A stretch of 64,000 nt of DNA, from positions 5,570,201 to 5,634,200 of the forward strand of contig NC_092670.1 in NCBI RefSeq assembly GCF_964355755.1. Direction: 5' to 3'. The DNA is from Antedon mediterranea. Taxonomy: Eukaryota; Animalia; Echinodermata. Shown piece by piece: positions 1-58,912 of the stretch. The first letter of the stretch is position 1, and the number at the start of each line of letters is the position of its first letter. The notes under the pieces were generated by a model that was given only the letters and a program-made list of their open reading frames with translations, ran no database searches and was not told the origin of the DNA. The translations under genes and the position numbers were made by a program.

Positions 1-303
1 TTCAGGATATTTTTAAAAAAAATTATATGTTAAAAGTACTGTAAAATGTATATGTAGGCCTAATGTAAAAAAATAAAAACTATCTAATCAATATGTTTAA
101 TTTTATTAATTATTATTATTTTTATTCTTTTTTTTATCATCTTAGATTAGGAGATGTCTGACTCACAAAAACATCATTCATCGGGAGGGACAAAACATAG
201 GCCTACAAAATATGAGCTAAGAGACAACCAAGAAAAACAAGAGGACACTAGGAGGAAGGAAAAATGGAAACCACCAGACAAGAAAAGCTATATAGTACGG
301 TAG
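1..303 (+). pseudogene. Truncated duplicate of the intron end and first ~46 codons of the DEAH-RBR helicase gene
   Basis: 1-292 aligns with about 22784-23060 (same acceptor TTAG|ATTAGGAG-ATG). ATG at 154 gives MSDSQKHHSSGGTKHRPTKYELRDNQEKQEDTRRKEKWKPPDKKSY, then homology ends and TAG follows at 301-303. Confidence 0.85.
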
Positions 304-1189: not shown

Positions 1190-1487
1190 CAATTGTTATT
1201 AATAGGACGTAGTTATGGGATGTTTCGTTCCAAAATCAATCAATCGAACTTTATAATGTAGGCCTACTAGCGCAATATTCTTTGCCGCAAGTACTTCTGT
1301 ACGCTGTGCACATCGATATTTCACCGTAAAATGTGCAATTACATTTTTTTAAATATAAGAAAAAGTTTAAAGTATTTTCTTTCTCCTATAGTTTACATGA
1401 ATTAACGGAGACAAGTTTGACACAAATTGATCTGCATATCACGTGACTATAATCCAATGTCGTAACTCTTTATACATGGCTGCTCTG
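1190..1487 (-). mobile_element. Partial inverted copy of the adjacent MITE (forms a ~600-bp palindrome with it)
   Basis: 1190-1487 is a near-perfect reverse complement of 1496-1795, separated only by CCTTCAAG (1488-1495). Confidence 0.8.
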
Positions 1488-1495
1488 CCTTCAAG

Positions 1496-2310
1496 CAGAG
1501 CCATATATATAAAGAGTTACGACATTGGATTTAAGTCACGTGATATGCAGATCAATTTGTGTCAAACTTGTCTCCGTTAATGCATGTAAAGTATAGGAGC
1601 AAGAAATTACTTTAAACTTTTTCTTATATTAAAAAAATGTAATTGCACATTTTACGGTGGAATATCGACGTGCACAGCGTACAGAACCACTTGCGCCAAA
1701 GAATATTGCGCGCGCGTACGCTAGTACATTATAACGTTCGATTGATTGATTTTGGAACAAAACATTCCATAACTACGTCCCATTAATAACAATTATGTAA
1801 TATTTCAATTCATAATGCATGCTTTGACGACTAAATAAAATAATAAAGTGTCGTGGACATATTTGTTAATATATTGAATAGGTATGAACAATATTAAAAT
1901 AATAAAGGCAAATTATTACAAATGAAATGATGAACGAGTCTCTGAAAGTTTGTGTCAAAAACACACAGAGAGCCATATACTGTATAAAAAGAGGGGTGAA
2001 TTTGTGTGTTTTTTGTATTGGTTCATGCTTTGATGTATCCTGACTTGCATGTAGGCCCTAGCATTTATTCTTTTGTTATTATAGACACAATATATATATG
2101 TTACCAAATTAATACCATTAATAACATTATTTACTAAAATAAAAACGGAATCTAAGCGTTATTTCATTGACAACAAAATCTAAAAATAATGCATGGAACT
2201 ACAGGAAAACGCTATACAAAAGAGACGCGCGCGCCCTCAGCGTGCGAATTCTTTGACACAAAAATGGCTTCTAATTTTCAATGTCGTAACTCTTTATATA
2301 TATGGCTCTG
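1496..2310. mobile_element. Non-autonomous DNA transposon (MITE), hAT/P-type ends
   Basis: ~31-bp TIR CAGAGCCATATATATAAAGAGTTACGACATT; 8-bp TSD CCTTCAAG at 1488-1495 and 2311-2318; no ORF. Confidence 0.85.
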
Positions 2311-2479
2311 CCTTCAAGCATGAAATAGCGCCACCTTAAGTTATGACGTCGCATCAGGCAACAACCGGAATTTGAGGGATAGGCAGTTTGCTGCAGCACG
2401 TCGCTGAGGATATGCCCTACATATATTGCATTTTTACGAAAGCCTATTAGGGCCAACAAAAAAATAATATTGCTTTCAC

Positions 2480-3145
2480 AAATTCGAAATAACGAATTAT
2501 TAATTCGTTATTTCGAATTTATTTAAGTAATTTGAAATTTCGAATTAATAATTCGAAATTTTGAATTATTAATTCGAAATTTCGAATTATTTATTTCGTT
2601 ATTTCAAATTATTAATTCGAAATTTCGAATTATTAATTCGAAATTTCGAATTAGTAATTCGTTATTTCGAATTCATAATTCGAAATTTCGAATTAGTAAT
2701 TCGAAATTTCGAATTAGTAATTCGTTATTTCGAATTAATAATTCGAAATTTCGAATTAGTAATTCGTTATTTCGAATTAATAATTCGAAATTTCGAATTA
2801 GTAATTCGTTATTTCGAATTAATAATTCGAAATTTCAAATTAGTAATTCGAAATTTCAAATTAGTAATTCGTTATTTCGAATTAATAATTCGAAATTTCG
2901 AATTAGTAATTCGTTATTTCGAATTAATAATTCGAAATTTCGAATTAGTAATTCGTTATTTCGAATTAATAATTCGAAATTTCGAATTAGTAATTCGTTA
3001 TTTCGAATTAATAATTCGAAATTTCAAATTAGTAATTCGAAATTTCAAATTAGTAATTCGTTAATTCAAATTTTTAATTCGTTATTTCGAATTAATAATT
3101 CGAAATTTCGAATTAATAATTCGAAATTTCGAATTAATAATTCGA
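2480..3145. repeat. Left subterminal array of ~21-bp quasi-palindromic repeats
   Basis: About 30 units of TTCGAAATTTCGAATTA(A/G)TAA / TTCGTTATTTCGAATTAATAA directly inside the left terminus. Confidence 0.95.
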
Positions 3146-3210
3146 CCTCTGCCCTTTCTAATGACATCCCAACCATCCCGGATGACTTTAGCTAATGCAA
3201 TCTGGTCACC

Positions 3211-4573
3211 ATGCGTCCTGAAAACCATTGGATTAGATTATATTTCAATCGTAGCTTAAATTATCAAGAGATTATTGAAATGTTAGCAGAAGATCATGAT
3301 ATTTTGATAAGTAAACGAACATTAAAGCGAAGGCTGAAAAAAATGTGCCTTAGTCGAAGAAAACGGCATTCTGACGAACTGGAAGTCGCTGCGTTCATTG
3401 AAAGTCAATTACAGACGTCAGGGATGCTACATGGGTACAGGTGGATGCACATTCGTTGCACACAAAATGGGTTAAACATAGATAAAGAGACGGTCAGAAT
3501 AATTTTAAACCTTCTTGACCCAGAGGGTGTCGAAGCAAGAAGAAGACGACGACTACACAGAAGAATTTATCATGTACCTGGCCCAAACTATATCTGGCAT
3601 ATCGACTCGTACGACAAACTTAAGCCATACGGCATTTGTATAAATGGCTGTATAGACGGATTCTCTAGACACATAATATGGCTAGAAGCTTACTTTACTA
3701 GCAGCAATCAAAAAGTTATAGCCGGCTATTACGTAAATTCTGTTCGCCAAAAAATGGGTTGTCCAAAGTCTATTAGAACAGATTTCGGAACTTAAAATTC
3801 TATTGTTGGTCCAATGCAACAATTTCTTTGTAATGAGAACAGCAGTTTTATACAAGGAACAAGTCAGCATAATCAACGAATTGAGAGTTGGTGGGGCATT
3901 CTCAGAAAACACTTTACTCAGTTTTGGATGGACGCCTTTAAACAACAAAAGAATGACGGTAGATATGATGGAGGTCTTATAGACAAATCTTTATTACAAT
4001 TTTGTTTTATGAAAATTATCCAGGTAAGCAGTACAGCAATTACATTGTGTGCTATGCATTATAGTCCCCAAGTACGACAATTATAATAATAATTTGGGCT
4101 TTCGCAACAATTTGAAAAGCAAACAATATTAGCCTAGAATTAAATCACTCCTCTTTTATTTACGATATTGTTTTTTTTTTCACGGTCTAAACTGTCATTA
4201 AACTATTTGTTTTTACTGTACTGTATTATATTTGCCTTTTTTAAAGGATGAACTGGACACGGTTGCAAATGAGTGGAATGCCCATCGCATCTCAAAATCG
4301 AGAAATAGCCATGGTCCGTTTGGACGCCCGACATTGATGTACAATGTACCATACTTATTCGGGGGACAAGAGTGTATTATTCCCGTTGATGTGGCTAAAG
4401 TTGAAGTTTGTGAAAGTGAATCCATCTTCAAAAGCCAGATTCCATGCGATAAGGACGTGTTCGACTTATGTTCCATATTCTTGGAAGAATGGCAGCTATC
4501 GATGCCGAAAACATGTGATGAAGGTTTGCAGTTATACAGCAGTCTTAGAAATATGTTTCTTGACGTCATCTGA
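3211..4573 (+). pseudogene. Integrase-like DDE transposase (N-terminal HTH/Clr5-like region + integrase core), 2 exons, ~379 aa, with a premature stop
   Basis: Exons 3211-4023 (CAG|GTAAGC) and 4247-4573 (AAG|GAT), phase 0. Motifs WHIDSYDKL, IRTDFGT*N and NQRIESWW form the D-D-E triad. In-frame TAA at 3793-3795 where the inverted copy has GAA (Glu). Confidence 0.9.
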
Positions 4574-4899
4574 TCAAATGCCACAGCAAGCACGTGATAT
4601 CACATTATCATGTTATAAATCGTTTTTTTTTTATTAATTAATTGTCGCTGTGATATTATTTCCAATACAAAGTTAGAATTGCAACGAACACAATGTAATG
4701 AATACAATATAAACAATTATATTTATAGTATTATGTTCAGTTGGTGATGATCAGACAGAATTGTGTTATGTAGCTGTACAATACAGTAAAACAGATGTAA
4801 TTTAACAACAACATTTTGTTTATTGAAACTTTAATAACAGTATTTTATTTCTGAAACAATTACAAAACTGTTGGCTACTAAAATTTGATCATAATTTAA

Positions 4900-5246
4900 A
4901 GATATATTGTCCCCCTGAAAAAATATTTTTTTTAATTGTTTTGTTGAATATGTTATTTTAATGTCACATAATAGTTTTTCACTTTCACAAAAAAAGGGTC
5001 TGAAAAAAAAATTATTTACCTAAGAAAACTGTAATTTAAAGCAAATAAATGGTCAAATTGGCTGGAAGACAATGAGTTTTGGGGTAATTTAACTGTTTAA
5101 CTGTTTTGTCTTTCTATAGGTGAAATAATTTTTTATTCTCGTTTTTTTTTCTTATAGAAACAACTTCATTAAAACTGCAAAATGGCCTATTCAAAGTCAG
5201 ATTTAAAAAATCTTTATTCTTCATGATTTTGGGGGACAATACATCT
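4900..5246. mobile_element. TTAA-targeting MITE (Kolobok-like)
   Basis: TTAA|AGATATATTGTCCCCC ... GGGGGACAATACATCT|TTAA; same terminal family as 21505-22055. Confidence 0.8.
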
Positions 5247-8200
5247 TTAAAGTTTTCCAAAACCCTTGCCATTTATGATGGCTTCCTCCATTAGAGTTGT
5301 GAATTCCAATGGATCGTCATATCCACGGGGGAGGTGTAAATCCAACCCACATGTACTGGCTGTCGGGTAACCTCTCATCTTTCGCTCCTTACTAAAAAAA
5401 TTTATATGTATCTGGTTGCTAAAACCAAGAGGGGGAATTGAGTCAGCACCAGTAACAAATGTTAGGAAGTCTCCAAGGGATGTCTTGGTCTTTTTATCTA
5501 AAATGCATAAAAATAAAAATGTTAAACATTATGAAATAAAAAATGTATACTTTTTTCGTCTACCATTTACCCTTTCACCGCTCTTATTAGCATACTTTCG
5601 TTTTGGTACAAGGAATTACAAATAGGGTATAGCGGTATAGTTCTTCAAGGTAAAGTTTGTTCGTGAATACACACAACCTTGTTTCTCTCTCGAAGGGCTA
5701 TATTATATAACTGTAAGGAAATACGGTACTGTATCGTTTCGTTTCGAGCCCTGGGGGTACCTAATTTTACTTTGGATATTCATTCTCAGCCCGAAGGATT
5801 GGGGCGGGGGGTATCTCAACACCCCTCCCCTCCCCCCTGCATATAACGCCCCATCTAGAGTTTACTTTAGTTTACATTAAAATAAAGATATAAATACTGT
5901 ATACAATACCTTCCGACTCTTGTAAGAAAACCTCCAGACAATACACTGTGTCCTCCTCTTGACTTCGTAAATTGGAGCCTGCCTCTGAATATTCAACTGT
6001 CATTAGTGTCTTTAGTACTTGCCGTGTCAGTCTTTTCCCCTCCAGAGTTAAAAGTGGGACAAATTGGTTTGGGTAATCTCTTACATTTTCCCAAAGTACT
6101 CCCAATCCTTCAGTGAACTGTCGGATTTCACTATGTGTTCTAGATTAGGAGAAAATGAATGCACCATGTAAATTATAATCACAATTAGCAAATAAAATGT
6201 GTTCACATTCATACGACCTGTACAATAATTCCAAGCCTTGATTTAAAGTTCAGCAATTTTACAGAAGAATCACCCAGAGCAGCCGTCAACCGACAAATAA
6301 AAACCAAAGGAGAATTTCATTTGGATGGATTTCGATGGATTTTCCTTCACGATGCTTTTAAATCCTAATGCCAAAATGTTTCTCCTGTCCTGAACTAGAC
6401 TTAACCCCTTGTGATTTTCCTTAAGGAAATATGCATAATGATACCGTACTATTTCTTGGATTAAAAAGGGCTAGTAACTAATTGTTTACATACATACATA
6501 TCTATATCTAGTTTACCCGCGTCTAACACTGAATAACCATGTGCTTAAAATATATTATCATTATTAGGCCTGTTACGTTACCTGTAAAACAAAAAATGCT
6601 TTAACAGACTTGACACGACTTGTTGTTTTTGATTGAAATCCGAGTTATACAACGTCATGACTCCTTGATCTGCCGCCCAATCCGATAATTCATGTGAAAT
6701 AGTACGGTACTCATCCGTCGTTTGGCAATTTGCAATCTGGATAAAAAGATACTGTAATCAAATTCTTTACAAATATACAAAAATTTAATACAAATTCATC
6801 GTAAGCCTATTAGGCCTACACGTGTGATAAAAGACAATGTAGGTCTACACGTTTTGCCGCGTGTATTATAGGCCTATTAGGTTTGGGTTAAATAAGTTGA
6901 TTGTGGTTACTGTAGGCCTACGTGTTTTAAAAAATAATCAGACCGTAAATAACAAAATTTATGTTTAAAAAAATGTAAAAAAGAAATTGTATTAATTTAA
7001 CTTTTGCTATTTTAATAGTAAAAGTTAAATTAATAACATTTCTTGTCCCATTTAAAAATGTTATAAATAAAAAGTCCGTTAGGTAACGTATAGAATATTT
7101 TAACATAACACATATTCCCATAAGTTATTTGATGCCTTGTTGTTAGAATGGTAAACGAAAATCACTTGCCTTTGCTATCTTGCCTCGGACATCTATGTCA
7201 CACACACTATTAACGTCCGAAAATCCATTTGACTTTAACCCACACATTAGCTTGAAAAGCTCTGGTTGCAAAGTTGGTAAGCCCGGACCTCCATGCAATA
7301 GACTCCATGCAACGAAACTACCAGCCATAGCATATTTGCGTTGCTCTAATAGCTCTATGTTATGGGTAAAATTTTGTTTCCCCACTTCTCCTTCCAGCAC
7401 TCCCAACTGTTCGCAAACTGCTTTCATTAGTAGTCTATATAAATCAAAGTGCACAATAAGAATTATCAGAAAAGCGCAACCAGTATACATTGTTTAAAAT
7501 AAATATTGCTCAAAATGTTACTGTAACAATAAAATACACACATACATCATACGTGCGTATACACTGGGCATACGAAACCAAAGATACAAAAAAATACAAA
7601 AAGTAACCAACAACGTCCAAACCAAAAAGTATGAGAGATACGCCTTTGTCATTAACTAGATTTTTTGTCTACAATTGCATTCCGGCCAGTACCCCAGCCA
7701 AGTGCGAAGGCTTGTTTCGCACGGTTCAACATCCGTCAGGGGGTATCTGGAACCCGCCGTATCTGGAACCCGCCCCCGCCTGTTACGCCACTGTATATAG
7801 TGTTAATTATAGGGAGTTTTATAAAAAAAATTATACAAATAGCACTATAGTACATTGCAAGAATAATCACCAAGTACTAACAATATAAGACAATGTTTAG
7901 TTGAGCATGCACATAGATATCAGTAATGTGTCCAATAAAGGTCCAAACCTGAACATTTCTCTTGTAGGTCCTCCGGTATCCATAGCTTCTTCTCCAACAA
8001 ATTCGCATTGTACCTTTTTTCGGCAGTTAAAACCATCTTGCCCGTACGCGTATAGGATCGAACGTAAAAACCGTTTTCTGTGGCAAATAACCTTCTGATA
8101 TTCATCAACTTGATGATGTCTCTGGTAATTGGCGAGGATGTCCTTAATTGTTATATCTACTTGATCTTCGCACCTAAAATGATATTATCAACCGTTAGTG

Positions 8201-10457
8201 TTGACGATAAATCATTAATGTCTTATTTGAACTGTTAAAACCATTTGGTGGGGGTAGGGTTTTGTTACCAGACAAGTTACCATCATTCACAAATTAATCA
8301 GTCGAGTCTCGTACGTAGGTGTAGTATAATGACTACAACATTCAGCCAATTTAGGGTTTAACAGGGGGTGGGGGTGGTACAAGGTGGGGGGGGGGGGGTT
8401 GTTTGGACACAAAACCGAACCATGAACCCCCTTGGCTACAGGCCTGTTTAAGCGTCTCCTGAAACATTTGGTACACAAACCTTGTTTCCTGGGATTCCAC
8501 TAAACTATTTTTAATAGCTTGTTGTAGTTGTAAGTCTTCTTCATCGTCTGTATCGTCAGAGTCTGAACATAAATTCACATATGATGTATATGCCGACCTG
8601 TAAACAAAAATAAAATTAAAATTAAAAATCCTTAAAAGAAAGTTTATATGCATAACAGAATACTTCTCATACAAACGATCACGGGTAATGTTCGGAAAAT
8701 TTTAATCGTTGTTCGTCAATCACACCTTACACAGCATTGTGGCATATTTCGAATAATAAGTTTAACTCACTCATTTTTCGATTGACTGGATGTTGAAGGC
8801 ATATGCGATTGACTTGTCGAGACTAAATTCATCATTGAGTCAGTAGGTCTATCAGGTACCTGTAAATGGAGCAATTCATTATAATGCTGGAGTTTACTTT
8901 ATGAATATTGTATTATAAGTGCACGATGAGTTATTTCACCTTTCTGAACAAGTTTATTTACTACCAGAAAAGATGGACTCGGTCTTCTGTTAATTAACAA
9001 AAATGAATCACACTAGTATATCATTGAGTTGTACCACAATTATACAATGTATAACTTATGGGTTTCAATTACATTACATTTTAAATATTACCTACCTTAA
9101 ACGATACGGTTGGTGTGTCGGGCTGTACAAGTGGGCGTGTTGGATGGTCTATTTCTACCAACGGTACATCATTATCCCCGTCGTCGTCATCAGATGACTC
9201 GCCACTTCTCTTTCGTTTTACGGCTTCATCTTTTCTGCCAACTGGAGTGGTTTGAAGGTAGAACCTTAGAACTGCCATTTTGCATTCAGCATACAGCTCC
9301 CCAACGCTCATGTCTTTTTTCAAGGGATGTTGTCGAAAATCACATAGCTTGCAGTTGAATTCGCTTAGCTTTCCTTTAAATGACAGTCCATCCTTAAAAA
9401 ACAAGTTAGTGGCAATTTCTAACAGTTCATTATAATTTGTGGACTTTGGCACTATTAGCTGTCTTGTTCCTCCTCCTTTTTGTTTGCGAACTTGTTTGAA
9501 GCATTTTGATTCAGCGTCGTAGTCCAACCACCCTATATCGATTTTCCGATTTGTTTTTTGGGCATTTTTGTTCCCTAACAGCGTGCTTGAGCGCGTATCC
9601 CAAAGATTTCCGTCCTCTTCCACGTCCTCTTCATCGTCCCTTCTCTTGTTCAATTTTTGTTTGAGTTTTTGTAGAACTGTTTCTTTTTTACTTTTACCTT
9701 TGCGTCTTTTGTCTTTGCAAAATTCGCGTACAGCAATTCTGTCCCCAAGGAGAGGAATAATTACTGAATCAATCTGCAAAAACAAAAGTTGATTAACATC
9801 ATGCATTACATAGTCACATTAAGGGGTCGAGTGAACGTTTCAATATATTTGATTAGGCATACCAATGATTGATCTAAACATTAAACCTTTTAAAATGTGT
9901 GCGTACTGTGTAAAACATCGTGGCATGCAAGCGACCCGTATGTGCTACGTTAAATTATGAATTTTCTTAACAGATTAGGATAAATCATGTATATGTACAT
10001 ATATCAATTTTAATATTGATTAGATAAACACTACAACTATAAGGGAAACAGTTTATGGAAACAAAATTTGAATTTGATGTACGTTTGCCTTTTATTGGGT
10101 GAAAAACTTCAATATTTGGGAAAATTACAGATTTCACAGTACAAACCCCCTTTTTACGCCGCTTATTAGGGGGTTCACAAAAACCCTAAACATTCCCCCT
10201 CTCCCTGGATTCGCAACTGGGCGTCGTGTGAACGTTTCAACCTCATACAACAAAGATGCAGAATAGGACTATAGGCCTATATTAATCTTATAGAGGATAC
10301 AATATTTAATTACAAATATAATTACAGTATAATATTTAGTATTCCCATGATTTAAGCATCATAGACATTGTTTTTTTTTTACCTTTTCATCCCTCATTCT
10401 CTGTATGTACTCCTCTTCAATTCCTCGTTCCTCCATGTATTCATATAACTTATCCAT
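5247..10457 (-). CDS. HECT-type E3 ubiquitin ligase (G2E3-like HECT), 9 exons, 694 aa, transposon-borne
   Basis: Exons 10457-10383, 9773-9096, 8859-8771, 8597-8481, 8173-7949, 7434-7170, 6736-6582, 6139-5910, 5497-5247 join in compatible phases (2085 nt, no stop). HECT motifs FVGEEAMDTGGPTREMF, FLTFVTGADSIPPLGF, catalytic YPTASTCGLDLHLP and C-terminal GFGKL*. UIM-like EEDLQLQQAIKNSLVE in exon 4. Confidence 0.9.
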
Positions 10458-10839
10458 CGCCGTATCTTTCGTGAATTTAATGTAGGGCCTATGGTTTTAT
10501 TCCCCAGTAGAGCTTCTTGTACCGCCAACCGAATTAAGCCCTAATGATTGCACAAACAGACTTTGGTAAGCGAATGGCTACTTTTTTGCGTAAAAGTTGG
10601 AGGCTTCCCCACTATATTATCATGGGGTAATTCAAGTGTATAGCTATAGCGACTTTAGCCTAGTATAAAAGTACAGTTATTGGTTAGTAATATAACATTA
10701 ATGTATTCTATTTTTTAAAAACTTATTAAGATTAAATTAAGGTATGATTAAGTGTTAATGTTAATAGCTATCCGTAATGTGTGTACTCTCCAGTCAAAAA
10801 ACGGAATACACAGGGATGTGCCTTCGCTATTGAAATTTA

Positions 10840-11085
10840 CTGGGTGCTCAAAACAGAGACCTCGAAAACAAAGATCAGAAACCCGGGTCTCTGTTTTGGA
10901 GATTTTAAAAACAGAGACCCCCCACCCCCACCAAAAAAAAAACTTCTCGATATTACATTATTTAAGGGGTATCTGTTTTCCAGAAAATTTCGAAAACAAT
11001 CGAGAAAATCTCGAAAACAGATACCCCCCTATATAACGTAATATCAAGAAGTTTTAGTGGGGGTCTCTGTTTTTGAGACACCCTG
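10840..11085. mobile_element. Short palindromic MITE-like repeat
   Basis: GGGTGCTCAAAACAGAGACC ... GGTCTCTGTTTTTGAGACACCC with internal AAAACAGAGACC repeats. Confidence 0.55.
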
Positions 11086-13878
11086 AATTTACCATAACAC
11101 TTGATTGTTTTTGCAATTAAATTCACGTTTTGTTTTATATGTATTGTTTCCCAATTACTTATACTTCTAACAGTTATGAAATGACACTGTCAAATGTAGC
11201 AAATCTGTCAAATAAAAACTTGATTTCCGACGAGATAACACACATTTACGTGATGCGATGTATGAAATAATATGAAGCTTCCATGCCTAGTTATTTATAA
11301 TCCGACAATTATTAGTGGAGATAATTTTAAAAACCGTTTAAAAACAGTGATTTTAAACAAGGTCGCGTTTCGGGATGCACAACGCGCGTGTCGCTTATTT
11401 ACGGAATACAATTGATATGTGCCCCATTTGCACTCATTTAATATCCTTCATTGAAATGGGACATAACTTACATAAGGTTTCGATACTATAACTAACTAAC
11501 TAAGTTTTATTATGATAAAAGAAATATAGGCCTAACTTAATATCGGTATGCACGCACATGGTTGACGTTGAGTTGTGCTAAATTACGAATAATATTATAG
11601 TATTGGAATTGATATTATCGAATGAAATTATTAAGACTAATTCATTTAAATACGTAAAATTAATCAAAGTAATATTTATTTTGAAGGATAAATATGTATA
11701 CATATATTCTTTCTATTAAAGTTAATGTTAAAACTGGTCATACAGTTATTAATTGCTGACTATTTGCCATAGTCCTACAGCGAAGCCTAAAACTTTAAAC
11801 ATTCAACTAAAATAATATGTTAATTCATTTTCGATGATTGAGTTGAGTTCAACAAAAACAAAAGATAAAACGTACTTACTGAAATATAAAATATGCTGGA
11901 ATTTCACTGGAACCGTAGGATAAAACAAACTATTTATTTTGTAAGTTTGTATGAAGCAGCAATGGTGATGGAAATTAATCTTACGTATTTATAGTTTTAA
12001 TAAGTAATTGCTTAACCAATCAAATTGTCGGAAAATGATGTAAACCTAACATCAATCAAATAAGACAGTGAATTGGTTTTTATCAACCCGGCACTTTTTT
12101 GGGCATGATTCATGGTTTCCCTTCCATTCCATATTTACATTCCTCGTGGTTTATATCATGTCCCTTATTTCCTTGTCTTCATTTTCCACATGCTCTAATC
12201 CATCATATGCCTATGTTTACATTCCAAAAAATGACACTCATGGAATCACTCTAAACTTATGAGTTGATCACTTCTTGTAATGAAATAGATGCGATTTGTA
12301 ATTATATAATAATAAAATAACATCAGTACGTATATTGTTCGTTTTACTATACTAAATCTTCAATTTTCAACTATTGTACAATTCTTGATTTAAACTGTTT
12401 TGTTTTTACTTAGATGGTCTGTGATTAGTTTTTTTTTGGTTTAAACTATACCGTACTTTATCATCTAGGGGCGTATCCGGTGGGTTGGGTGGGGGGGGGG
12501 GGGGGGGATGCTGTCGTTCCCCCTTCTTTTTTCAATAAAACAAATTGAAATTGAAATTGAAATTGAAACGGTCGGCGAATCAAAATTTCACAAACTCACA
12601 TTAAGGTTGACACCCCCACCCCTCTTTATATTCATTGTTGGCTAATCTATCATCCCTTGTCATTAATTTAGAATGTTTACACTCTTATGTTTGACAATAA
12701 AGTTGAAAGTTAAGAAAGTATTGTCATATTGATTCGAATATCAATACAGTATCAAGGGCGGGTCTACTACCTTGTCATCTGCCATTTGGCAAGTCATTTA
12801 GCGTCTCGGACGTAAATTGAATCCGCCCCTGAGTATTGTACGTTTTGTATACCATTTGTTTGAAAAAAGAATCCGTGTACTATAGTAGGCCTACAGGAAT
12901 TTTTTTGAAAATGGCCAAAATATCACCTTTTTTAAAATACAATTATTATGCGATAATATTGCCATATGCGTATATTGTGTTATCAACATGTTATAGAGCT
13001 ATAGTTGCATTCCTCTATAATATTTTTAAATAACTGGTGCAAGACATAATCTGTCAGTCCATGGCAGTATTTTAAATATTAAATGTATCATATTATTTTC
13101 ATTGACAGAATATCGTAATCCCATAAACTCGTTATGATCGATGAAATCAACGGCTAAGCTGCAACGACTTGTTGCTATTGTAATGTATCAGAGTTATATA
13201 CAATTCCAATATTTAACGTTACCACACACCAACTGAGTTCAAAAATTTTCCCCACAAAAGTCCAGTAAGAAACTGACCAGATGTTTTTCATGAATACTAC
13301 TTGTAACCAATTAGCTCTCTAAAGTAACAGTTTATCTAACCTTAGAGAACTTTCCCATCGTAAAACAATTCAAGAATGACAGTTTTTAAGTAGAGAATTG
13401 ACAACGATATCCATCATTGAGATATACAATTTTTTCAAACTACTTTGTCTTGCCTGTACCTAGATCGTGGATCAACTAGGACCAATTTTATATCTAAGCT
13501 CAAAGACGATATAATGATGACATATGCAATGAACAGAAGCCGATATACCCCCAGTCTCAACAGAGCCCAGAGACACCTCACTGAGCCACTTCATCATAGG
13601 CACACCTACAGAGACACACCTCATTCACAACATCATCATCTATCATCACCGATCGACTGATACCCTGTAGTAGTATTTATCGTATCGTATCGTATATACG
13701 AACTCAATTGCAACCAAGCGAGTAAAGTCTCAATACCGGGCTCATCAGTCTAAAACGTCTCCAATTATATTACACTATATTTAAAATTGATCCATATAAA
13801 TTTAAAAACAAATGTATGTAAAGACGCCCTTAATCTTACTCTGGCGGACACTTTAGTTAAATACGATATTAATAATAA

Positions 13879-14541
13879 TTTTCTGAGAATGCCCCAACAA
13901 CTCTCAATTCGTTGATTATGCTGACTTGTTCCTTGTATAAAACTGCTGTTCTCATTACAAAGAAATTGTTGCATTGGACCAACAATAGAATTTTCAGTTC
14001 CGAAATCTGTTCTAATAGACTTTGGACAACCCCCGGGACAACCCATATTTTTTGGCGAACAAAATTTACGTAATAGCCGGCTATAACTTTGGGACTAGCC
14101 ATATTATGTGTCTAGAGAATCCGTCATTTATACAAATGCCGTATGGCTTAAGTTTGCCGTACGACTCGATATTCCAGATATAGTTTGGGCCAGGTACATG
14201 ATAAATTCTTCTGTGTAGTCGTCGTCTCCTTCTTGCTTCGACACCCTCTGGGTCAAGAAGGTTTAAAATTATTCTGACCGTCTCTTTATCTATGTTTAAC
14301 CCATTTTGTGTGCAACGAATGTGCATCCACCTGTACCCATGTAGCATCCTTGACGTCTGTAATTGGCTTCCAGTTCGTCAGAATGCCATTTTCTTCGACT
14401 AAGGCACATTTTTTTCAGCCTTCGCTTTAATGTCCGTTTACTTATCAAAATATCATGATCTTCTGCTAACATTTCAATAATCTCTTGATAATTTAAGCTA
14501 CGATTGAAATATAATCTAATCCAATGGTTTTCAGGACGCAT
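13879..14541 (-). pseudogene. Inverted, truncated, frameshifted copy of transposase exon 1
   Basis: Reverse complement of 3211-3909 with a ~19-bp deletion after DELE, a 9-bp deletion (GCI), a deletion after IIWL, a small duplication at MGCP and WHID changed to WNIE. Ends abruptly after GILRK. Confidence 0.92.
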
Positions 14542-14606
14542 GATGACCAGATTGCATTAGCTAAAGTCATCCGGGATGGTTGGGATGTCATTAGAAAGGG
14601 CAGAGG

Positions 14607-15105
14607 TCGAATTATTAATTCGAAATAACGAATTAAAAATTTGAATTAACGAATTACTAATTTGAAATTTCGAATTACTAATTTGAAATTTCGAATTATT
14701 AATTCGAAATAACGAATTACTAATTCGAAATTTCGAATTACTAATTCGAAATTTCGAATTACTAATTCGAAATTTCGAATTATTAATTCGAAATAACGAA
14801 TTATTAATTCGAAATAACGAATTACTAATTCGAAATTACGAATTACTAATTCGAAATAACGAATTACTAATTCGAAATTTCGAATTAATAATTCGAAATT
14901 TCGAATTAATAATTCGAAATTTCGAATTAATAATTTGAAATAACGAAATAAATAATTCGAAATTTCGAATTAATAATTCGAAATTTCGAATTATTAATTC
15001 GAAATTTCGAATTATTAATTCGAAATTTCAAATTACTTAAATAAATTCGAAATAACGAATTAATAATTCGAAAAAACGAATTAATAATTCGTTATTTCGA
15101 ATTTG
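14607..15105. repeat. Right subterminal ~21-bp repeat array
   Basis: Reverse complement of the left array with fewer units (~23). Confidence 0.95.
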
Positions 15106-15269
15106 TGAAAGCAATATTATTTTTTTGTTGGCCCTAATAGGCTTTCGTACATTTTTCTTGAGGTATTGCTTGTACCATTTGTTCGTGGGTATTTGTTTTC
15201 CACTGTAATTTCGCGTCAAGTGGCGTTACTTTTGTGTTTGTAACTCCCGCAAACCGTCATATAAATCTG

Positions 15270-16560
15270 ATTACAGTATTTCTTCGTATCGTGTGTGTGA
15301 TGAAGAGGAACGCGACAGCAGCAACTGTTGCCGTGTGTTTCGAGGAACGGGTGAGTGCCTAGCCCTGGGCCTAGGCGGTAGGCCTACTAGTACTAGACTA
15401 GAGAAAGGCTTGGATGGGCAGGACTTAACGTCGAAGAAACCTAGTCTAGGCGGATCGTTTAGGCTAGGCTGTCTTTTCAATTCATTCATGGTAGTTTTTA
15501 ACTTTTGTAGTCTAGGCTAGGCCTGGTTTAAATTAATGTTAAGCCTAGCTAGCTTATACTATAGTGTAGCCCTACTAGCTAGAAATAGAAGAGTGTAGCA
15601 GTAGGCTAGTAGTAAGCCTAGATAGTAAAATAGGCCTGGCCCTAGTAGTAGTAGTAGCAGGTAGCCTACTATACTACTACTACTAGGCCTAGTACTAGGC
15701 GGGATGAAGCAAGCAAGTAAATGCTAGCTAACATTCAATTATTAATCAATGTTATACATGTACATTTTAATTTATAAATACATTTTTACAATGTAAAAAA
15801 CAGTAAAAATACTGATTACTAAAAAGTTTAACAATATTAATATTTATTTTAACTTGTTTCTTGAAAGAAAAATGTATATAAGTTAAATTTTAATATTAAT
15901 GTACTAGATACTATATCTATTTATATCATAGAAGATTAATGTGACCATTGTAGCATCTCTTTTACTGTAAATAGTGTTATAACTACCTACTACTAGACCT
16001 ATAAAATAGATTGTGAAGTAATTATTGGTCGTGTTGTATTTAAAAAAAAAAAATTAATTATGGTATAATTAATATTCATATCATCATACTCGTTAGAACA
16101 AGTGCATAGGTGTGTTATTTGTATACATGTTGCAGACTTCTATATAGAATATTTTATGATTTTTTTTCTTTTTACCATAGGGTAATACAAATCTACTGTA
16201 CCAAAACACTTTCCTGACCTTGATTGGACTTGCAGTTGATAATGCCGTAAGGACTTGTGATTTTACCCAAGAAATTTAAATACATTTTCAGGTAAATGGA
16301 TTTATAATATCAAAATGTCCTACAATAAAACCTGGTGAATAAGAATGTTTAGTTTTATTTATATGATATTAAGAGAAACTGTTGCTGATATAATACTTTT
16401 GTTTTTTGGTGCTCAATCTAGTTCCTGGTTGACATTTAATATTTGTTTGTTCTTTTTAGAGTGTATGGTAGCTGAATTATTTTGTCTTCCATAGCTTGTT
16501 GGCTCCTTAACAAACTGCAGCATCTGTTGAAAACAAATTTGCAAAGATACAAAAATATCA
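15270..16560 (+). other. Candidate spliced non-coding or 5'-UTR exons
   Basis: Strong donor CGG|GTGAGT at 15350/15351 followed by a TAGGCCTA-rich tract; exon-like 16181-16291 (polypyrimidine-CCATAG| ... CAG|GTAAAT); further acceptor at 16459; no convincing ORF. Confidence 0.35.
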
Positions 16561-16699
16561 AGGTGCAAGATGTTGTATATTTGTCTGTTACACTAGAGTA
16601 TTATTTAATCGGGTCAATTTATGTACAGTATCTTTTATTCACATATTATAAATATTAATATAACACACTATCAAGGAAAAATTATTATTATATATATTT

Positions 16700-18375
16700 T
16701 GGTTCCATGTGATGAACACTAATAAAATCAAGCTTATTTGAGCAATTGAATGCTGTTTAATTAAACAGCATTCAATTGCATAATTGCATTCAATTACGTA
16801 ATTTCTGTGATTTTCCCTGAGAGCGTGTTTTTTAATTAAACAGAATTCAATTGCTTAAATAGACTTGATTTTTCTTGTTTGAGTTTACGTTAGTTCCATG
16901 TGATGAACACTAATAATTTCATTCAATAAAATTAAATTTAAAGGTACAGTTACGTAATTTCTGTGATTTTCCTTGAGAGCGTGTTTATTTAATTAAACAG
17001 CATTCAATTGCTTAAATAGACCTGATTTTTTCTTGTTTGAGTTTACTTTAGTCCCATGTGATGAATACTAATAATTTCATTTAATAAAAATAAATTTAAA
17101 GGTACAGTTACGTAATTTATGTGATTTTTCTTGAGAGCGTGTTTTTTAATTAAACAGCATTCAATTGCTTAAATAGACCTGGTTTTTTCTTGTTTGAGTT
17201 TACTTTAGTTCTACGTGATGAACACTAATAATTTAATTCAATACAAATAAATTTAAAGGTACAGTTACGTAATTTCTGTGATTTTTCTTGAGAGCGTGTT
17301 TTTTAATTAAACAGCATTCAATTGCTTAAATAGACCTGATTTTTTCTTGTTTTAGTTTACTTTAGTTCCATGTGATGAACACTAATAATTTCATTCAATA
17401 AAATTAAATTTAAAGGTACAGTTACGTAATTTCTGTGATTTTCCTTGAGAGCGTGTTTTTTAATTAAACCGCATTCAATTGCTTAAATAGACCTGGTTTT
17501 TTCTTGTTTGAGTTTACTTTAGTTCTATGTGATGAACACTAATAATTTAATTCAATAAAAATAAATTTAAAGGTACAGTTACGTAGTTTTTGTGATTTTT
17601 CTTGAGAGCGTGTTTTTTAATTAAACAGCATTCAATTGCTTAAATAGACCTGATTTTTTTCTTTTTTTAGTTTACTTTAATTCTATGTGATGAACACTAA
17701 TAATTTAATTCAATAAAAATAAATTTAAAGGTACAGTTACGTAATTTATGTGATTTTTCTTGAGAGCGTGTTTTTTAATTAAACAGCATTCAATTGCTTA
17801 AATAGACCTGATTTTTTCTTTTTGGAGTTTACTTTAGTTCTATGTGATGAACACTAATAATTTAATTCAATAAAAATAAATTTAAAGGTACAGTTACGTA
17901 ATTTCTGTGATTTTTCTTGAGAGCGTGTTTTTTAATTAAACAGCATTCAATTGCTTAAATAGACCTGATTTTTTCTTGTTTAAGTTTACTTTAGTTCTAT
18001 GTGATGAACACTAATAATTTAATTCAATAAAAATCAATTTAAAGATACAGTTACGTTGTTTCTGTGATTTTTCTTGAGAGCGTGTTTTTTAATTAAACAG
18101 CATTCAATTGCTTAAATAGACCTGATTTTTTCTTGTTTGAGTTTACTTTAGTTCCATGTGATGAACACTAATAATTTCATTTAATAAGAATAAATTTAAA
18201 GGTACAGCATTCAATTGCTTAAATAGACTTGATTTTATCTTGTTTGACTTTACTTTAGTTCTATGTGATGAACACTAATAAATTCATTCAATAAAAATAA
18301 ATTTAAAGGTACAGTTATACAATTTCTGTGATTTTTCCCTGAGAGCGTGTTTTTTTTAGTTAAATAACATTCAAT
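16700..18375. repeat. Tandem satellite, 157-158-bp unit, ~10 copies
   Basis: GTTACG marker recurs at 16949, 17107, 17264, 17421, 17578, 17736, 17893, 18050. Confidence 0.95.
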
Positions 18376-22055: not shown

Positions 22056-22921
22056 TTAAGTATCTACGTCCAGTACTTACAGAGATATGATGATGCCATG
22101 GTATGTGGGTCAAAGGTCAGAAATGACATTTATGATTTTTTACTAAAATTCTCTATTAGACTTAATATGAATGCATGCCTTCTGAACATTTTGAGACCAA
22201 AATTGACTTGCTGTGACTAGTGGTTGCCGAGATACAAGTACCTAATTATATTTGTTTATATAACCCTTGACCCTGACCCTTTGTAACATTTTTCAAAATG
22301 TGTAACAAATAACAAAATATATATTTCGAACAATTTAAGACCAAATTCAAGTGTCTACGACCAGTAGTAGTTACGGAGATACATACAGGCCCTGGGTCAG
22401 AAATGGCATTTGCAGTCATTTTTGACTAAAATTTCCCATTAGACTGAATATAAATATATACCTTTTGATCAATTTGAGATTACCTCACTGTGACCAGTGG
22501 TTGTCGAGATTTAAGAATCTATTGAGTGTTTGGTCTTACAACCTTTCACCCTGACCTTTTGACCTTTTGCCACATTTTCAAAATGTGTAACCAAGCCAAA
22601 AAAGATTGTTTGACAACCCTAAACCAATATCTGAAGTCAAATTCTCTGGACCTCAAAGTGCATACGAAAGTTGATCTAGCTACTAGAGTAATTCATGAAT
22701 ATCCAAAACCAGATGAACATTTTTAATCAAGTAGAAATATAGTTTGAAATAATTTTTGATTTAGCTTAAACTTGTGTTCAGAATTCAGGATATTTTGTTT
22801 AAAAATTATATGTGAAAAGTACTGTAAAATGTATATGTAATGTAAAAAAGTAAAAACTATCCATTATGTTTATAATTTATTAAGCTTTTTTTATTCTTTT
22901 TTTTTTATCTTAGATTAGGAG

Positions 22922-25900
22922 ATGTCTGACTCACAAAAACATCTTTCATCGGGAGGGACAAAACATAGGCCTACAAAAAATGAGCCAAGAGAAAACCAAG
23001 AAAAACAAGAGGACACTAGGAGGAAGGAAAAATGGAAACCACCAGACAAGAAAAGCTATAGACCAAACACAGAAGTTATAGCAGGTAGAAAGTGGACAAG
23101 GAGTAGCAGAATAAGCCAACAGCCTACTGGTGCCGCTAAACAAAAAGTTAAAAAGCCTACAACAGATGAAAGTAAAAAAAGCAAGTTAAGAGAACATTCT
23201 GAGACAAAATGCTGTAGTGATGTTAAAGAAGTCACAAGAAAAGAACATTATAAAAGGGAAGGAGGAAGCAAAACGAGCCAAAACCCCACTAAAGAAAGAA
23301 CAGAAATCAAAGGAAAAGCCACACATAAGGATTCTGATAGCAAAAGAAGTCATACTGAAGGTAAGGATGTCTTAAGCGGTCATGGGAAAAAAGACAAAAT
23401 AAATTCATCCTCATCTATTCAGCCAAAAAGTAACAAGCCTCTTACTTATAGTAGTAACACCAAAAATCAGAAAAAACAATATGATGGTAGTTTATGTTCT
23501 CATGATTCTGGAACTGTAAAAAAGCGAGCAACTGGTAATAGAGTGTTATCTGTCTCTAAACGTCATCCCAAAGACAAGAACATGGTGGAACAGCCAACTA
23601 CGATTTGCTTTACCGGTATTCAAGTATGTAAGTCACCTGATTCTCATGCTCAAATTGTAAAGTTGTTAGATGAAAATGGCATAAACTATTCGTTATTCAG
23701 CCTCTTAAAAAGTAAAACTGCAAAGCAATTTTCAGATATCAATTTGCAAATTAAATTTAGAGAGGAAGCCTATCAGTGCATTCAACTGATGCAAAAGAAT
23801 TTTAAAGTTAATTCAAGTGCTATCATAGGCATAAATGAAGAATTACTAACAAGTAATATCACTACCAAGCATGATATACATGGTCATCCCAAGGAAACAC
23901 CAATGTATTTCGAAAATGCAAAATGTCTTGAAATCGTTAATCTTCCACCAAAAACACAAGCGGCAGATTTAGGTGCATTACTGACAAACCAAGAGATATG
24001 CCAAGAAGAATTACGTAAAATAAAAATAGAAGAGAACAACAGAGCAGTGGTGTTGTACTGGTCTCGTGATTCAGCGATTAATGCTGTAAGAAAGCTTTAT
24101 GGAGTGTGTTACAAGGGTAGAATGTTAGATCTTCGACTATGTGAGGAATCTGCAGAAATTGAAGGTGCAATATTCAAAGACCTAAAACAAACTCTGATGA
24201 AGGAGATTGAAGAAAAAGTAGCTCCCATATTATCCAAGTGGGACGGAGAAATAAATAAACTGGAAAACGAAGTTACTAAAATAAAAAACAGTCGTAAACA
24301 TAATTTCATTCTAATTGACGAAGCCGAAAGAATCGAAGTTGAAAAACAAGGTTTAATGTTCAAACAGAACCAGTTAAAAAGGTTTACAAGTCAGTTGACA
24401 TTTTGTATTGAAAAGTTGAAACATAAAACTGAACAAGCAATCAACATAGAGACTGTTGGTATGATAAAAAATGAGTTATGTCGTGAAATCCGGAAAGCAA
24501 GCAACCCATTGCCTATATATGCATTCCGAAGTGATATTATAAACACAGTGTTTAGTGACAAAAACAATGCATGTGTTATTTTAGGAGAAACTGGGTCTGG
24601 AAAGAGTACACAAATTGCACAATACTTAGTTGATGCAGATTTCCTAATTCCTAGTGACGTCAAGATTAAGATCGCTTGTACACAACCTCGAAAAGTAGCT
24701 GCTATTTCTCTTGCAAAAAGAGTTGCTGAGGAATATGGTTGTGAGGTAGGAGAGCAAATTGGCTATAAGGTTGGCTCGTCCCAAAAGACCAGTTTAAACA
24801 CAGTTGTAACGTTCATGACCGATAGAGTTCTTCTTAATAGTCTTTTACAAGATCCAAAGCTTAAAGGCTATTCCTGCATTGTCATAGATGAAGCACATGA
24901 ACGTTCTATTGACACAGATATTTTAATCACTCTTCTCAAGAAAGTTTCTGCTCAAAGACCAGAGTTGAAAATTGTCATAACATCAGCAACAATTGATGAA
25001 AAGGTTTTTTGTAGCTATTTCAACTGTCCATACATGAAGATCCCTGGCAGAATTTTCCCTGTAGAAACAAAATTCATCAGTAGTACTGGCTTTAATATTA
25101 AAACAAACTATGTAAAAGAGGCCGTGGATATAGCTGAAATGATACATACAACAAAAAAGCAAGGTGACATCTTGGTATTTTTGACATCTGCAAATGAAAT
25201 AGAACGAGCTTGTGGAGATCTTGCTAAACGGCTTGGAATCATAGGTGATAATGGAAATGCTCAAATACTTCCTCTCCATGGTAAACTACAACCACAAGAT
25301 CAGTTGGCAATATTTAATGCACCTCCTCCTGGTAAAAGAAAAATAGTCTTTGCTACCAACATAGCAGAGACTTCAGTCACTATAGATGGTGTAAGGTATG
25401 TCATTGATACAGGAATGGTCAAAGAGCTTAAATTTGATGCAAAAAAGATTATGAGTTTGTTGGAAGTTACAACTATTAGCCAATCATCTGCTGAGCAAAG
25501 AAAAGGACGAGCAGGTAGGACATCCACCGGTGAATGCTTCAGACTATATTCAGAAAAGGATTATGATGAAATGGAAGCAAACAACAAACCAGAAATTTTA
25601 AGAGTGCACCTTGGAATGGCTGTTTTACAACTTCTTCAGCTTGGTATTCAAGATGTTAAACATTTTGAATTTGTTCAACCTCCTCAAGATGGTGCTTTGA
25701 AAGAAGCTTTGAAAATGTTAGTGTTTCTTGGAGCAGTTAGTGATCATTCTCATAAACTAACTGATCTTGGAAAGAAAGTAGCATTACTTAATTTAGAACC
25801 ACGTTTAGCCAAATTGGTACTGACGTCAATTGAGAATGACATAGCAGAAGAGGGTATAATTGTAGCTGGTCTTCTTGCTGCTGGTGGAAATGTCTTTTAC

Positions 25901-52561: not shown

Positions 52562-52852
52562 GTCACCGGGTGTGGCTTGTTCTTCGTCACCGGGTGTGGC
52601 TTGTTCTTCGTCACCGAGTGTGGCTTGTTCTTCGTCACCGGGTGTGGCTTGTTTTTCGTCAGCGGGTGTGGCTTGTTCTTCGTCACTGGGTGTGGCTTGT
52701 TCTTCGTCACCGAGTGTGGCTTGTTCTTCGTCACCGAGTGTGGCTTGTTCTTCGTCACCGGGTGTGGCTTGTTCTTCGTCACCGGGTGTGGCTTGTTCTT
52801 CGTCACCGGGTGTGGCTTGGTCTTTGTAATCGGGTGTGGCTTGGTCTTCGTC
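52562..52852. repeat. 24-bp coding minisatellite (~12 copies, DEEQATPG)
   Basis: GTCACCGGGTGTGGCTTGTTCTTC tandem units in the stalk exon. Confidence 0.95.

Positions 52853-54799: not shown

Positions 54800-58912
<4,113 letters not shown>

What the first reader, a model, noticed from the sequence alone, without database searches (positions are those of the whole stretch)
2435..15149. DNA transposon encoding its own intact HECT E3 ubiquitin ligase, convergent with an integrase-type transposase
Seen: perfect termini and a 6-bp TSD bracket two intron-containing genes arranged tail to tail. The HECT gene is open over 9 exons and keeps the catalytic Cys (PTASTC) and the terminal Phe at -4 (GFGKL), so it looks enzymatically competent. 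The ORF track misses it because it is split into small exons. Known: IS3EU-type elements have TAY..RTA ends, 6-bp TSDs and a second gene; I am not aware of a characterised function for a transposon-encoded HECT ligase. Inference: a two-component mobile system in which the ligase degrades or modifies host silencing factors, regulates the transposase, or marks target chromatin. It could also explain dispersed G2E3-like annotations in animal genomes.
Basis: partly seen in the sequence, partly recalled or inferred. Interest (0 to 1): 0.9.

Follow-up and report, generated by a model that had tools for sequence, protein, structure and literature searches.

The report
Transposon family carrying ubiquitin ligases
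This jumping gene, likely from a feather star, carries a gene for a predicted ubiquitin-tagging enzyme facing its transposase gene, and the same pair sits beside most related transposases from other genomes, so these elements likely bring their own tool for removing proteins, although this copy is damaged.

Summary
The element is real: TAC..GTA ends, a 6-bp duplication (CATTTT), and an empty site in three other sequencing runs. It is an IS3EU/GingerRoot DNA transposon. The HECT gene is open over 9 exons and keeps its Cys and -4 Phe.

An unbroken transposase model sits next to a ligase model at another locus of the closest named species.

The pairing is a family trait. Of 71 distinct related loci from metagenomes, 21 carry a HECT gene, all downstream and convergent; 20 of 28 with at least 2 kb downstream. 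The ligases are modular: SAM, ubiquitin-like domain, and in 4 loci a FAF1-like p97 adaptor.

Most likely mechanism (inferred, untested): ubiquitin/p97 removal of proteins at the transposition complex; anti-silencing is the close rival. No paper searched describes the pairing; Repbase was not readable. This scan noted the same pair before in two sea-urchin windows.

The parts
2429..2434 (.). Target site duplication, left copy (CATTTT)
   Evidence: empty site in X5, X6, X8
2435..3909 (+). Left inverted arm: TAC end, 75 bp perfect terminal match, 21-bp minisatellite (about 2474-3145), 5' half of transposase exon 1
3211..4023 (+). Transposase exon 1 (Clr5-like HTH, rva_4 DDE core), with in-frame TAA at 3793-3795
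4247..4573 (+). Transposase exon 2
   Evidence: joined model matches the 379-aa P0297 at all but 6 positions
4900..5246 (.). Nested high-copy miniature inverted-repeat element, AG..CT ends, TTAA on both sides, inserted at the ligase stop codon
   Evidence: sequence; inverted ends; very high contig depth
5247..5497 (-). Ligase exon 9: HECT C-lobe, catalytic Cys motif, -4 Phe, stop
5910..6139 (-). Ligase exon 8 (HECT)
   Evidence: a related contig in X5 joins 5497 to 5910
6582..6736 (-). Ligase exon 7 (HECT)
   Evidence: joints in X5
7170..7434 (-). Ligase exon 6 (HECT), followed by a GC-AG intron
   Evidence: X5 joint ends at 7170
7949..8173 (-). Ligase exon 5 (start of HECT N-lobe)
8481..8597 (-). 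Ligase exon 4: SIM-like and UIM-like stretch (motifs recalled, not called by Pfam)
8771..8859 (-). Ligase exon 3 (disordered linker)
9096..9773 (-). Ligase exon 2: rest of SAM domain (36-bp in-frame deletion near 9757-9760) and ubiquitin-like beta-grasp domain
10383..10457 (-). Ligase exon 1 (ATG, first SAM helices)
   Evidence: same residues open P0124
10458..13878 (.). Non-coding interior upstream of the ligase, with nested repeats; no second terminus or minisatellite remnant found
13879..15149 (-). Right inverted arm: second copy of the left end with a truncated, frameshifted transposase 5' half; GTA end
15150..15155 (.). Target site duplication, right copy (CATTTT)

Best explanation
This is a damaged copy of an IS3EU/GingerRoot DNA transposon from a widespread animal lineage that carries, opposite its transposase, a gene for a predicted HECT ubiquitin ligase, which likely tags proteins at the transposition complex so that the host p97 unfoldase would strip them off the DNA. 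Shown: element boundaries, empty site, both genes, the lesions, the convergent pairing in 21 other loci, the kept catalytic Cys. Predicted by structure models: SAM, ubiquitin-like and HECT folds. Inferred: this copy is non-autonomous and was moved by transposase from an unbroken copy; its right end is a second left end; the ligase is active in intact copies; the most likely substrate is the transposase left clamped on the strand-transfer product, by analogy with ClpX acting on MuA. My odds: family-level pairing 0.9, active ligase in intact copies 0.8, own transposition complex as main target 0.4.
For: Pairing: 21 of 71 locus clusters, 20 of 28 with at least 2 kb downstream, 8 of 9 with at least 5 kb; all 21 downstream and on the opposite strand; none in 53,457 upstream bases; Pfam HECT in 21 of 21, 17 at or above the curated cut-off. 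Inverted subterminal repeat arrays enclose the pair in L011, L031, L040, L044; L040 and L011 end in GTA, L031 starts with TAC. Consecutive accessions for transposase and ligase models on same-length contigs at two Antedon loci. Selection: L063/L065 HECT dN 0.009, dS 0.165 over 101 codons; 16 other pairs have saturated synonymous sites and dN 0.33-0.59. Cys kept in 23 of 23 printed tails (17 by pattern, 6 by eye). Deep co-inheritance: transposase clade of 11 all carry HECT type A, clade of 10 carries 8 type B. FAF1-like helix + UBX inside the ligase gene in L011, L019, L035, L045; that module stimulates p97-UFD1-NPL4 disassembly of a ubiquitylated helicase complex (PMC9377798, abstract). MuA stays bound until ClpX removes it (PMC5357137, passage).
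Against: No activity or substrate data. The ligase is not obligatory: L050 is a complete 2.9-kb element with ends and duplication but no HECT; 8 of 28 loci with at least 2 kb downstream have no hit; three distant relatives with 10 kb downstream have none; fungal IS3EU carry TET/JBP and alpha-kinase genes instead (PMC12730594, passages). Ligases are swapped between transposase clades (L031, L040), and pairwise identities of the two genes do not correlate in 12 loci (Mantel rho -0.04, p 0.54), which argues against a tightly matched pair. The UBX module is absent from this element and from the 310 proteins held then. The clade split is one event, so its Fisher p (0.0002) overstates. Only the best 80 of 422 confirmed loci were examined.
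Confidence: 0.5

Rival explanations
1. Anti-silencing cargo: the ligase ubiquitinates host chromatin or silencing proteins (for example SUMO-marked or Polycomb-type complexes) and so keeps the element expressed or its ends open; the transposase is not the target.
For: Modules fit chromatin and SUMO/ubiquitin handling: SAM like BICC1 and tankyrase (Z 7.8, 61 of 63 aligned), ubiquitin-like domain whose top rows are Polycomb ULD/RING1B domains (Z 9.8, 9.0; tied with ATG5, ATG12 and others); SIM-like motif in 8 of 41 linkers against 3.7 expected (p 0.03). Fungal IS3EU carry TET/JBP genes proposed to counter methylation (PMC12730594, abstract and passages). Ligase swaps between transposase clades suit a host target.
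Against: The SIM pattern was written after seeing the window's motif and the excess is small. The Polycomb rows do not stand above other ubiquitin folds. An untargeted ligase would also free rival elements; no DNA-binding domain was found in it.
Confidence: 0.3
2. Self-limiting switch: the ligase destroys surplus free transposase and caps transposition to spare the host.
For: Fixed convergent layout in 21 of 21; a ~90% related HECT contig in run X5, spliced at three predicted introns, has depth 369-647 where neighbouring intron DNA has 3-28 (X5 is only guessed to be RNA and contig depth is a poor measure).
Against: A brake acting in trans is hard to keep under purifying selection across many lineages; the p97 adaptor suits extraction from complexes more than disposal of free protein (inference).
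Confidence: 0.1
3. One-off capture of a host G2E3-like gene by a single element, with no role in transposition.
For: GingerRoot elements capture gene fragments (PMC6839031, passages). This copy is decaying. A related HECT transcript of unknown genomic home exists.
Against: Same side and orientation in 21 of 21 loci whose transposases are 39-77% identical among the 12 compared; purifying selection; no G2E3-type zinc fingers.
Confidence: 0.04

Closest known systems
[quoted passage not shown]
   Same: TA..TA ends, 6-bp duplication, integrase-like DDE core; 49 of 70 residues identical by eye to the first part of the IS3EU-1_CGi core printed in the supplement; two coding genes (PMC10853768, figure legend passage).
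   Different: Second gene identified here as SAM-UBL-HECT ligase; none of four IS3EU/GingerRoot papers searched holds 'HECT' or 'ubiquitin' in its main text. This copy has 1.3-1.5 kb arms that include transposase sequence; GingerRoot repeats are 100-150 bp.
Fungal TET+ IS3EU elements (PMC12730594)
   Same: Enzyme cargo; an alpha-kinase gene in the orientation opposite to the transposase.
   Different: Cargo is TET/JBP dioxygenase and alpha-kinase, not a ubiquitin ligase.
HECT class IV: G2E3 and GL-Metazoa families (PMC3673628, section 16)
   Same: Highly divergent HECT domains; databases name the relatives 'G2/M phase-specific E3 ubiquitin-protein ligase-like'.
   Different: Mammalian G2E3 has zinc fingers and a non-functional HECT domain per that paper; these proteins have SAM + ubiquitin-like domains and keep the Cys. 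'transpos' does not occur in that paper's main text. Whether they equal GL-Metazoa was not tested.
Phage Mu MuA / ClpX (PMC5357137, passage)
   Same: Works-like only: a DDE transposase that must be removed from the strand-transfer product by an unfoldase.
   Different: Mu relies on a host unfoldase that recognises MuA; here the element would supply the tagging enzyme, and in some lineages the p97 adaptor.
FAF1 coiled-coil + UBX p97 cofactor (PMC9377798, abstract)
   Same: Profile of three element-borne segments hits FAF1 chains at E 5.4e-12 over helix and UBX.
   Different: Fused to a HECT ligase inside a transposon; seen in 4 of 80 loci, not in this element.

Membership tests
IS3EU/GingerRoot | TA..TA termini (TAY..RTA) | tested here: met
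   TAC at 2435, GTA at 15149; definition from PMC10045372 passage
IS3EU/GingerRoot | 6-bp target site duplication | tested here: met
   CATTTT both sides; one copy at the empty site in X5, X6, X8
IS3EU/GingerRoot | IS3/integrase-like DDE transposase of the IS3EU type, without HHCC | tested here: met
   PF24764 + PF14420; motif match by eye to IS3EU-1_CGi and IS3EU-1_DR cores; invariant D, D, E columns
IS3EU/GingerRoot | Placement in the IS3EU clade by a tree with Repbase reference sequences | not testable with these tools
   Repbase entries were not available as tool sequences; only supplement passages were read
IS3EU/GingerRoot, autonomous element | Unbroken transposase frame | tested here: not met
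   TAA at 3793-3795; right-arm copy truncated and frameshifted. An unbroken 379-aa model exists elsewhere (P0297)
HECT E3 ligases | Bilobal HECT fold at the C-terminus | tested here: met
   PF00632 E 3.7e-12; model of P0274, Foldseek E 3.7e-12 to Smurf2, then AREL1, HUWE1
HECT E3 ligases | Catalytic Cys in the C-lobe and -4 Phe | tested here: met
   PTASTC and GFGKL; Cys kept in relatives, Phe at -4 in type B, often Met or Ile in type A. The -4 Phe rule is recalled.
HECT E3 ligases | Ubiquitin thioester and transfer activity | not testable with these tools
   Needs an assay
G2E3 orthologues | N-terminal PHD/RING-like zinc fingers | tested here: not met
   No such Pfam family in P0274 or P0124; N-terminus folds as SAM + beta-grasp
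GL-Metazoa HECT family | Clade membership in the published HECT tree | not tested
   Reference sequences not fetched

The most novel reading that the evidence does not exclude
A large branch of IS3EU transposons in aquatic animals encodes its own ubiquitin-and-p97 remodelling kit (SAM, ubiquitin-like, UIM-like or FAF1-type UBX, HECT) that disassembles its own strand-transfer complex: a self-encoded eukaryotic counterpart of ClpX acting on MuA. Many 'G2E3-like' genes in fish and invertebrate genomes would then be transposon genes.
Probability: 0.3. Interest if true: 0.9.

Novelty: new variant of a known kind. Interest (0 to 1): 0.66.

Why it matters
It names the second gene of many animal IS3EU elements, a superfamily whose structure and function one 2025 paper calls largely unexplored (PMC11934779, passage). 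It shows that a class of divergent 'G2E3-like' HECT genes travels inside transposons, which affects counts of ubiquitin-ligase families in fish and invertebrates. If the ligase acts on the transposition complex, it gives a two-gene system for testing how eukaryotic DDE enzymes are cleared from DNA after insertion. If it acts on host silencing proteins, it is a new kind of transposon counter-defence.

Tried and rejected
No whole genome is held for this window, so copy counts in its own assembly could not be made. Contig depths (transposase 5' part 115, ligase 5' part 29 in X1) hint at more transposase ends than ligase genes, but the tool says depth is no copy number; not used. No RNA holder was listed on record; X5 is only a guess, though it shows GT..AG joints in the host gene. 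A transposase splice joint was not among the listed joints (221 not shown). The ESM Atlas did not answer. Viral contigs: 63 pattern matches, none confirmed. The reverse test (transposase beside each HECT gene) could not be run: the ligase alignments had no stretch conserved enough for a DNA scan, and the one metagenome scan went to the transposase. Prokaryote genomes: 9 loci, all in metagenome-assembled genomes, read as host contamination (inference from introns); 1 of 9 has a convergent multi-exon HECT (L082). No HECT-bearing locus held both ends, so no duplication could be tested there. No native right end or internal minisatellite found in the window. Single-sequence search of P0275 against PDB: 0 hits. 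SIM enrichment weak and pattern-biased; UIM-like pattern in 1 of 38 long relatives. Polycomb RAWUL identity of the ubiquitin-like domain rejected as unproven: tied with other ubiquitin folds. P0274 is not counted as independent: it equals the window's ligase apart from model ends and may be this locus. Paper search for five terms on strand-transfer-complex disassembly: 0. The Kojima 2019 review is not held.
Full report
1. Observation. The element runs from 2435 to 15149, begins TAC, ends GTA, and its ends are identical for 75 bp. CATTTT flanks both sides. Contigs of three runs (X5, X6, X8; two organism codes, two studies) join window 2399-2428 directly to 15150, which is the empty site with one CATTTT. 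In run X1, three contigs continue the terminus into flanks other than the right flank here; one may be this element's own left flank. So this is a true insertion, absent from at least one chromosome in other samples.

2. The ends are not plain short repeats. The arms are 2435-3909 and 15149-13879. Each holds a 21-bp minisatellite and the 5' half of transposase exon 1; 734 of 753 aligned bases match, and the right arm has three deletions and one insertion. No other terminus or minisatellite remnant lies inside the element. I infer that the right end is a second left end. Contigs of X1 and X5 both run exactly 127 letters past 13800, which is 30 letters past the last arm-specific difference at 13897. 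I infer that both samples carry the same interior-to-arm junction, so it is not an assembly error; the letters themselves were not shown.

3. Transposase. Two exons (3211-4023, 4247-4573) give a 379-codon frame with Clr5-like and rva_4 domains. Codon 195 is TAA, between the second Asp and the Glu of the DDE triad. The right arm and contigs of X1 and X5 have G at that place. An unbroken 379-aa model of Antedon mediterranea (P0297) differs from the window's frame at 6 positions, this one included. This copy is therefore non-autonomous. The search found 1692 relatives at E <= 1e-20 among 1848 candidates; named ones among the 120 listed come from echinoderms, molluscs, fish and a beetle. The closest named are from Antedon, so the host is likely a feather star (inference).

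4. Ligase gene. Nine exons, 2085 nt, 694 aa, no stop, one GC-AG intron. A contig about 90% alike in X5 joins exons at 5497/5910, near 6139/6582 and 6736/7170, the last three predicted introns; it is a relative, not this copy. Structure models give a SAM domain (BICC1 and tankyrase SAM, Z 7.8, 61 of 63 aligned, rmsd 2.3-2.5), a ubiquitin-like beta-grasp domain (best Z 9.8, 80 aligned, rmsd 2.3; many ubiquitin folds tie) and a HECT domain (Foldseek E 3.7e-12). Exon 4 holds a SIM-like and a UIM-like stretch (recalled motifs; Pfam calls neither). Against P0124 the window lacks 12 SAM residues, which cover most of two short helices of the model. A miniature element sits at the stop codon, which is kept.

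5. The pairing is a family trait. These fall into 71 clusters. HECT hits by downstream length, for the 57 clusters whose transposase 3' part is seen: 0 of 19 under 1 kb, 1 of 10 at 1-2 kb, 6 of 9 at 2-3 kb, 6 of 10 at 3-5 kb, 8 of 9 over 5 kb; 0 of the other 14. All 21 hits are downstream and on the opposite strand; none lies in 53,457 upstream bases against 159,359 downstream. Pfam confirms 21 of 21, 17 at the curated cut-off. Inverted repeat arrays enclose the pair in four loci. The L040 end resembles the window's end. In Antedon, transposase and ligase models carry consecutive accessions on same-length contigs at two loci, and family members lie on contigs of five lengths. One Patiria ligase sequence is encoded by at least two named loci, with a third at 90% or more. 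The N-terminal region has 1083 clusters at 50% identity; of the 150 best, 38 are 540-999 aa long and 36 of these have a HECT domain, one has a kinase.

6. Evolution. One close pair gives dN 0.009 and dS 0.165 for HECT; 16 distant pairs have saturated synonymous sites. Trees of 21 loci split transposases 10/11 and HECT C-lobes 8/13, both with strong support; the 11 all carry type A, the 10 carry 8 type B (this element among them) and 2 type A (L029 left out, its HECT piece is short). So linkage is old, with swaps. Within 12 loci identities do not co-vary (crude local identities). Four type A loci carry a FAF1-like helix plus UBX between the ubiquitin-like and HECT domains; three built the profile, L045 was found by it at E 2.7e-26. 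HECT is not obligatory: L050 is a complete element without it.

7. Mechanism. Shown: a transposon-borne HECT gene under constraint, with modules for ubiquitin and p97 handling. Inferred: intact copies make an active ligase. It must act where it helps its own element. The simplest route is the transposase bound to the end repeats. DDE transposases can stay clamped on the insertion product; MuA needs ClpX to be removed (PMC5357137, passage). FAF1's coiled coil and UBX lower the ubiquitin threshold for p97 disassembly of the CMG helicase (PMC9377798, abstract). I therefore rank removal of the transposition complex first (0.4), anti-silencing second (0.3), a brake on transposase third (0.1). The swaps and the HECT-less elements count against the first. 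Binding was not modelled here.

8. What is known. IS3EU/GingerRoot is defined by TA..TA ends and 6-bp duplications (PMC10045372, passages and supplement passages). Seen: PMC12730594, PMC11934779, PMC10853768, PMC5638112, PMC2837046, PMC5357137 as passages; PMC6839031 as abstract, passages and section 21; PMC3673628 as passages and section 16; PMC9377798 as abstract. PMC5638112 lists G2E3 among protein matches of unclassified repeat candidates in a fish, without linking it to IS3EU. Searches that found no description of the pairing: IS3EU (62 papers, 30 listed); HECT + transposase + DNA transposon + terminal inverted repeat (7 papers); GingerRoot (13); G2E3/HECT/expansion/transpos; transposon-encoded + E3 ubiquitin ligase + transposase (8); IS3EU/GingerRoot/HECT/ubiquitin ligase, any two; IS3EU + ubiquitin (2, titles unrelated). 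Most were judged from listings only. Repbase, Dfam, the Kojima 2019 review and most supplements were not seen. The Repbase name IS3EU-1_CGi_2p suggests that a second protein is on record there, and it may be annotated as HECT.

9. Earlier notes of this scan describe the same pair in two sea-urchin windows. I tested the pairing myself; the docking claim in one note is unchecked and not used as support.

10. Verdict. Observation partly confirmed; member of IS3EU/GingerRoot; a ligase-carrying variant not found in the papers searched; this copy is damaged. Interest 0.66.

Noticed in passing
window 2340-2434 and 15150-16458: The element sits inside a transcribed host first exon or promoter region: an X5 contig spans the empty site, and GT..AG joints run 15349-16180, 15489-16180 and 16289-16458. 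The insertion may disturb a minor upstream start of that gene.
   Followed up: partly
window 22919-28834 (+): Single 1971-codon frame with DEAH helicase, RRM, KH and RING/IBR domains, DEAH11-like; its start is duplicated at window 1-292 at 91-94% identity.
   Followed up: partly
window 54972-58321 (+): LINE-type element with PHD finger, endonuclease and reverse transcriptase in two overlapping frames.
   Followed up: no
window 31480-32905 (-): Exons with laminin G/concanavalin-like and kringle domains.
   Followed up: no
window 16695-18340 and 52490-52921: Tandem arrays of 157-bp and 24-bp units; the 24-bp array is open in several frames.
   Followed up: no
window 1400-1700: Large imperfect palindrome in the left flank, seen in the sequence; probably another miniature element.
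   Followed up: no
P0141, P0159, P0176: The same N-terminal region occurs with a protein kinase in place of HECT (P0141), and a short part of it matches repeats in very long proteins, one with SEA domains.
   Followed up: no
P0300, P0310: Fish HECT relatives of this type carry PF07177 by precomputed Pfam, a further N-terminal variant.
   Followed up: no
L081, L082, L087: Intron-containing IS3EU-type sequence, one with a multi-exon HECT gene, inside a bacterial metagenome-assembled genome: likely host contamination.
   Followed up: partly
run X5, window 5247-7170: A spliced contig of a ~90% related HECT gene at high depth; its genomic home (another element family or a domesticated copy) is unknown.
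   Followed up: no
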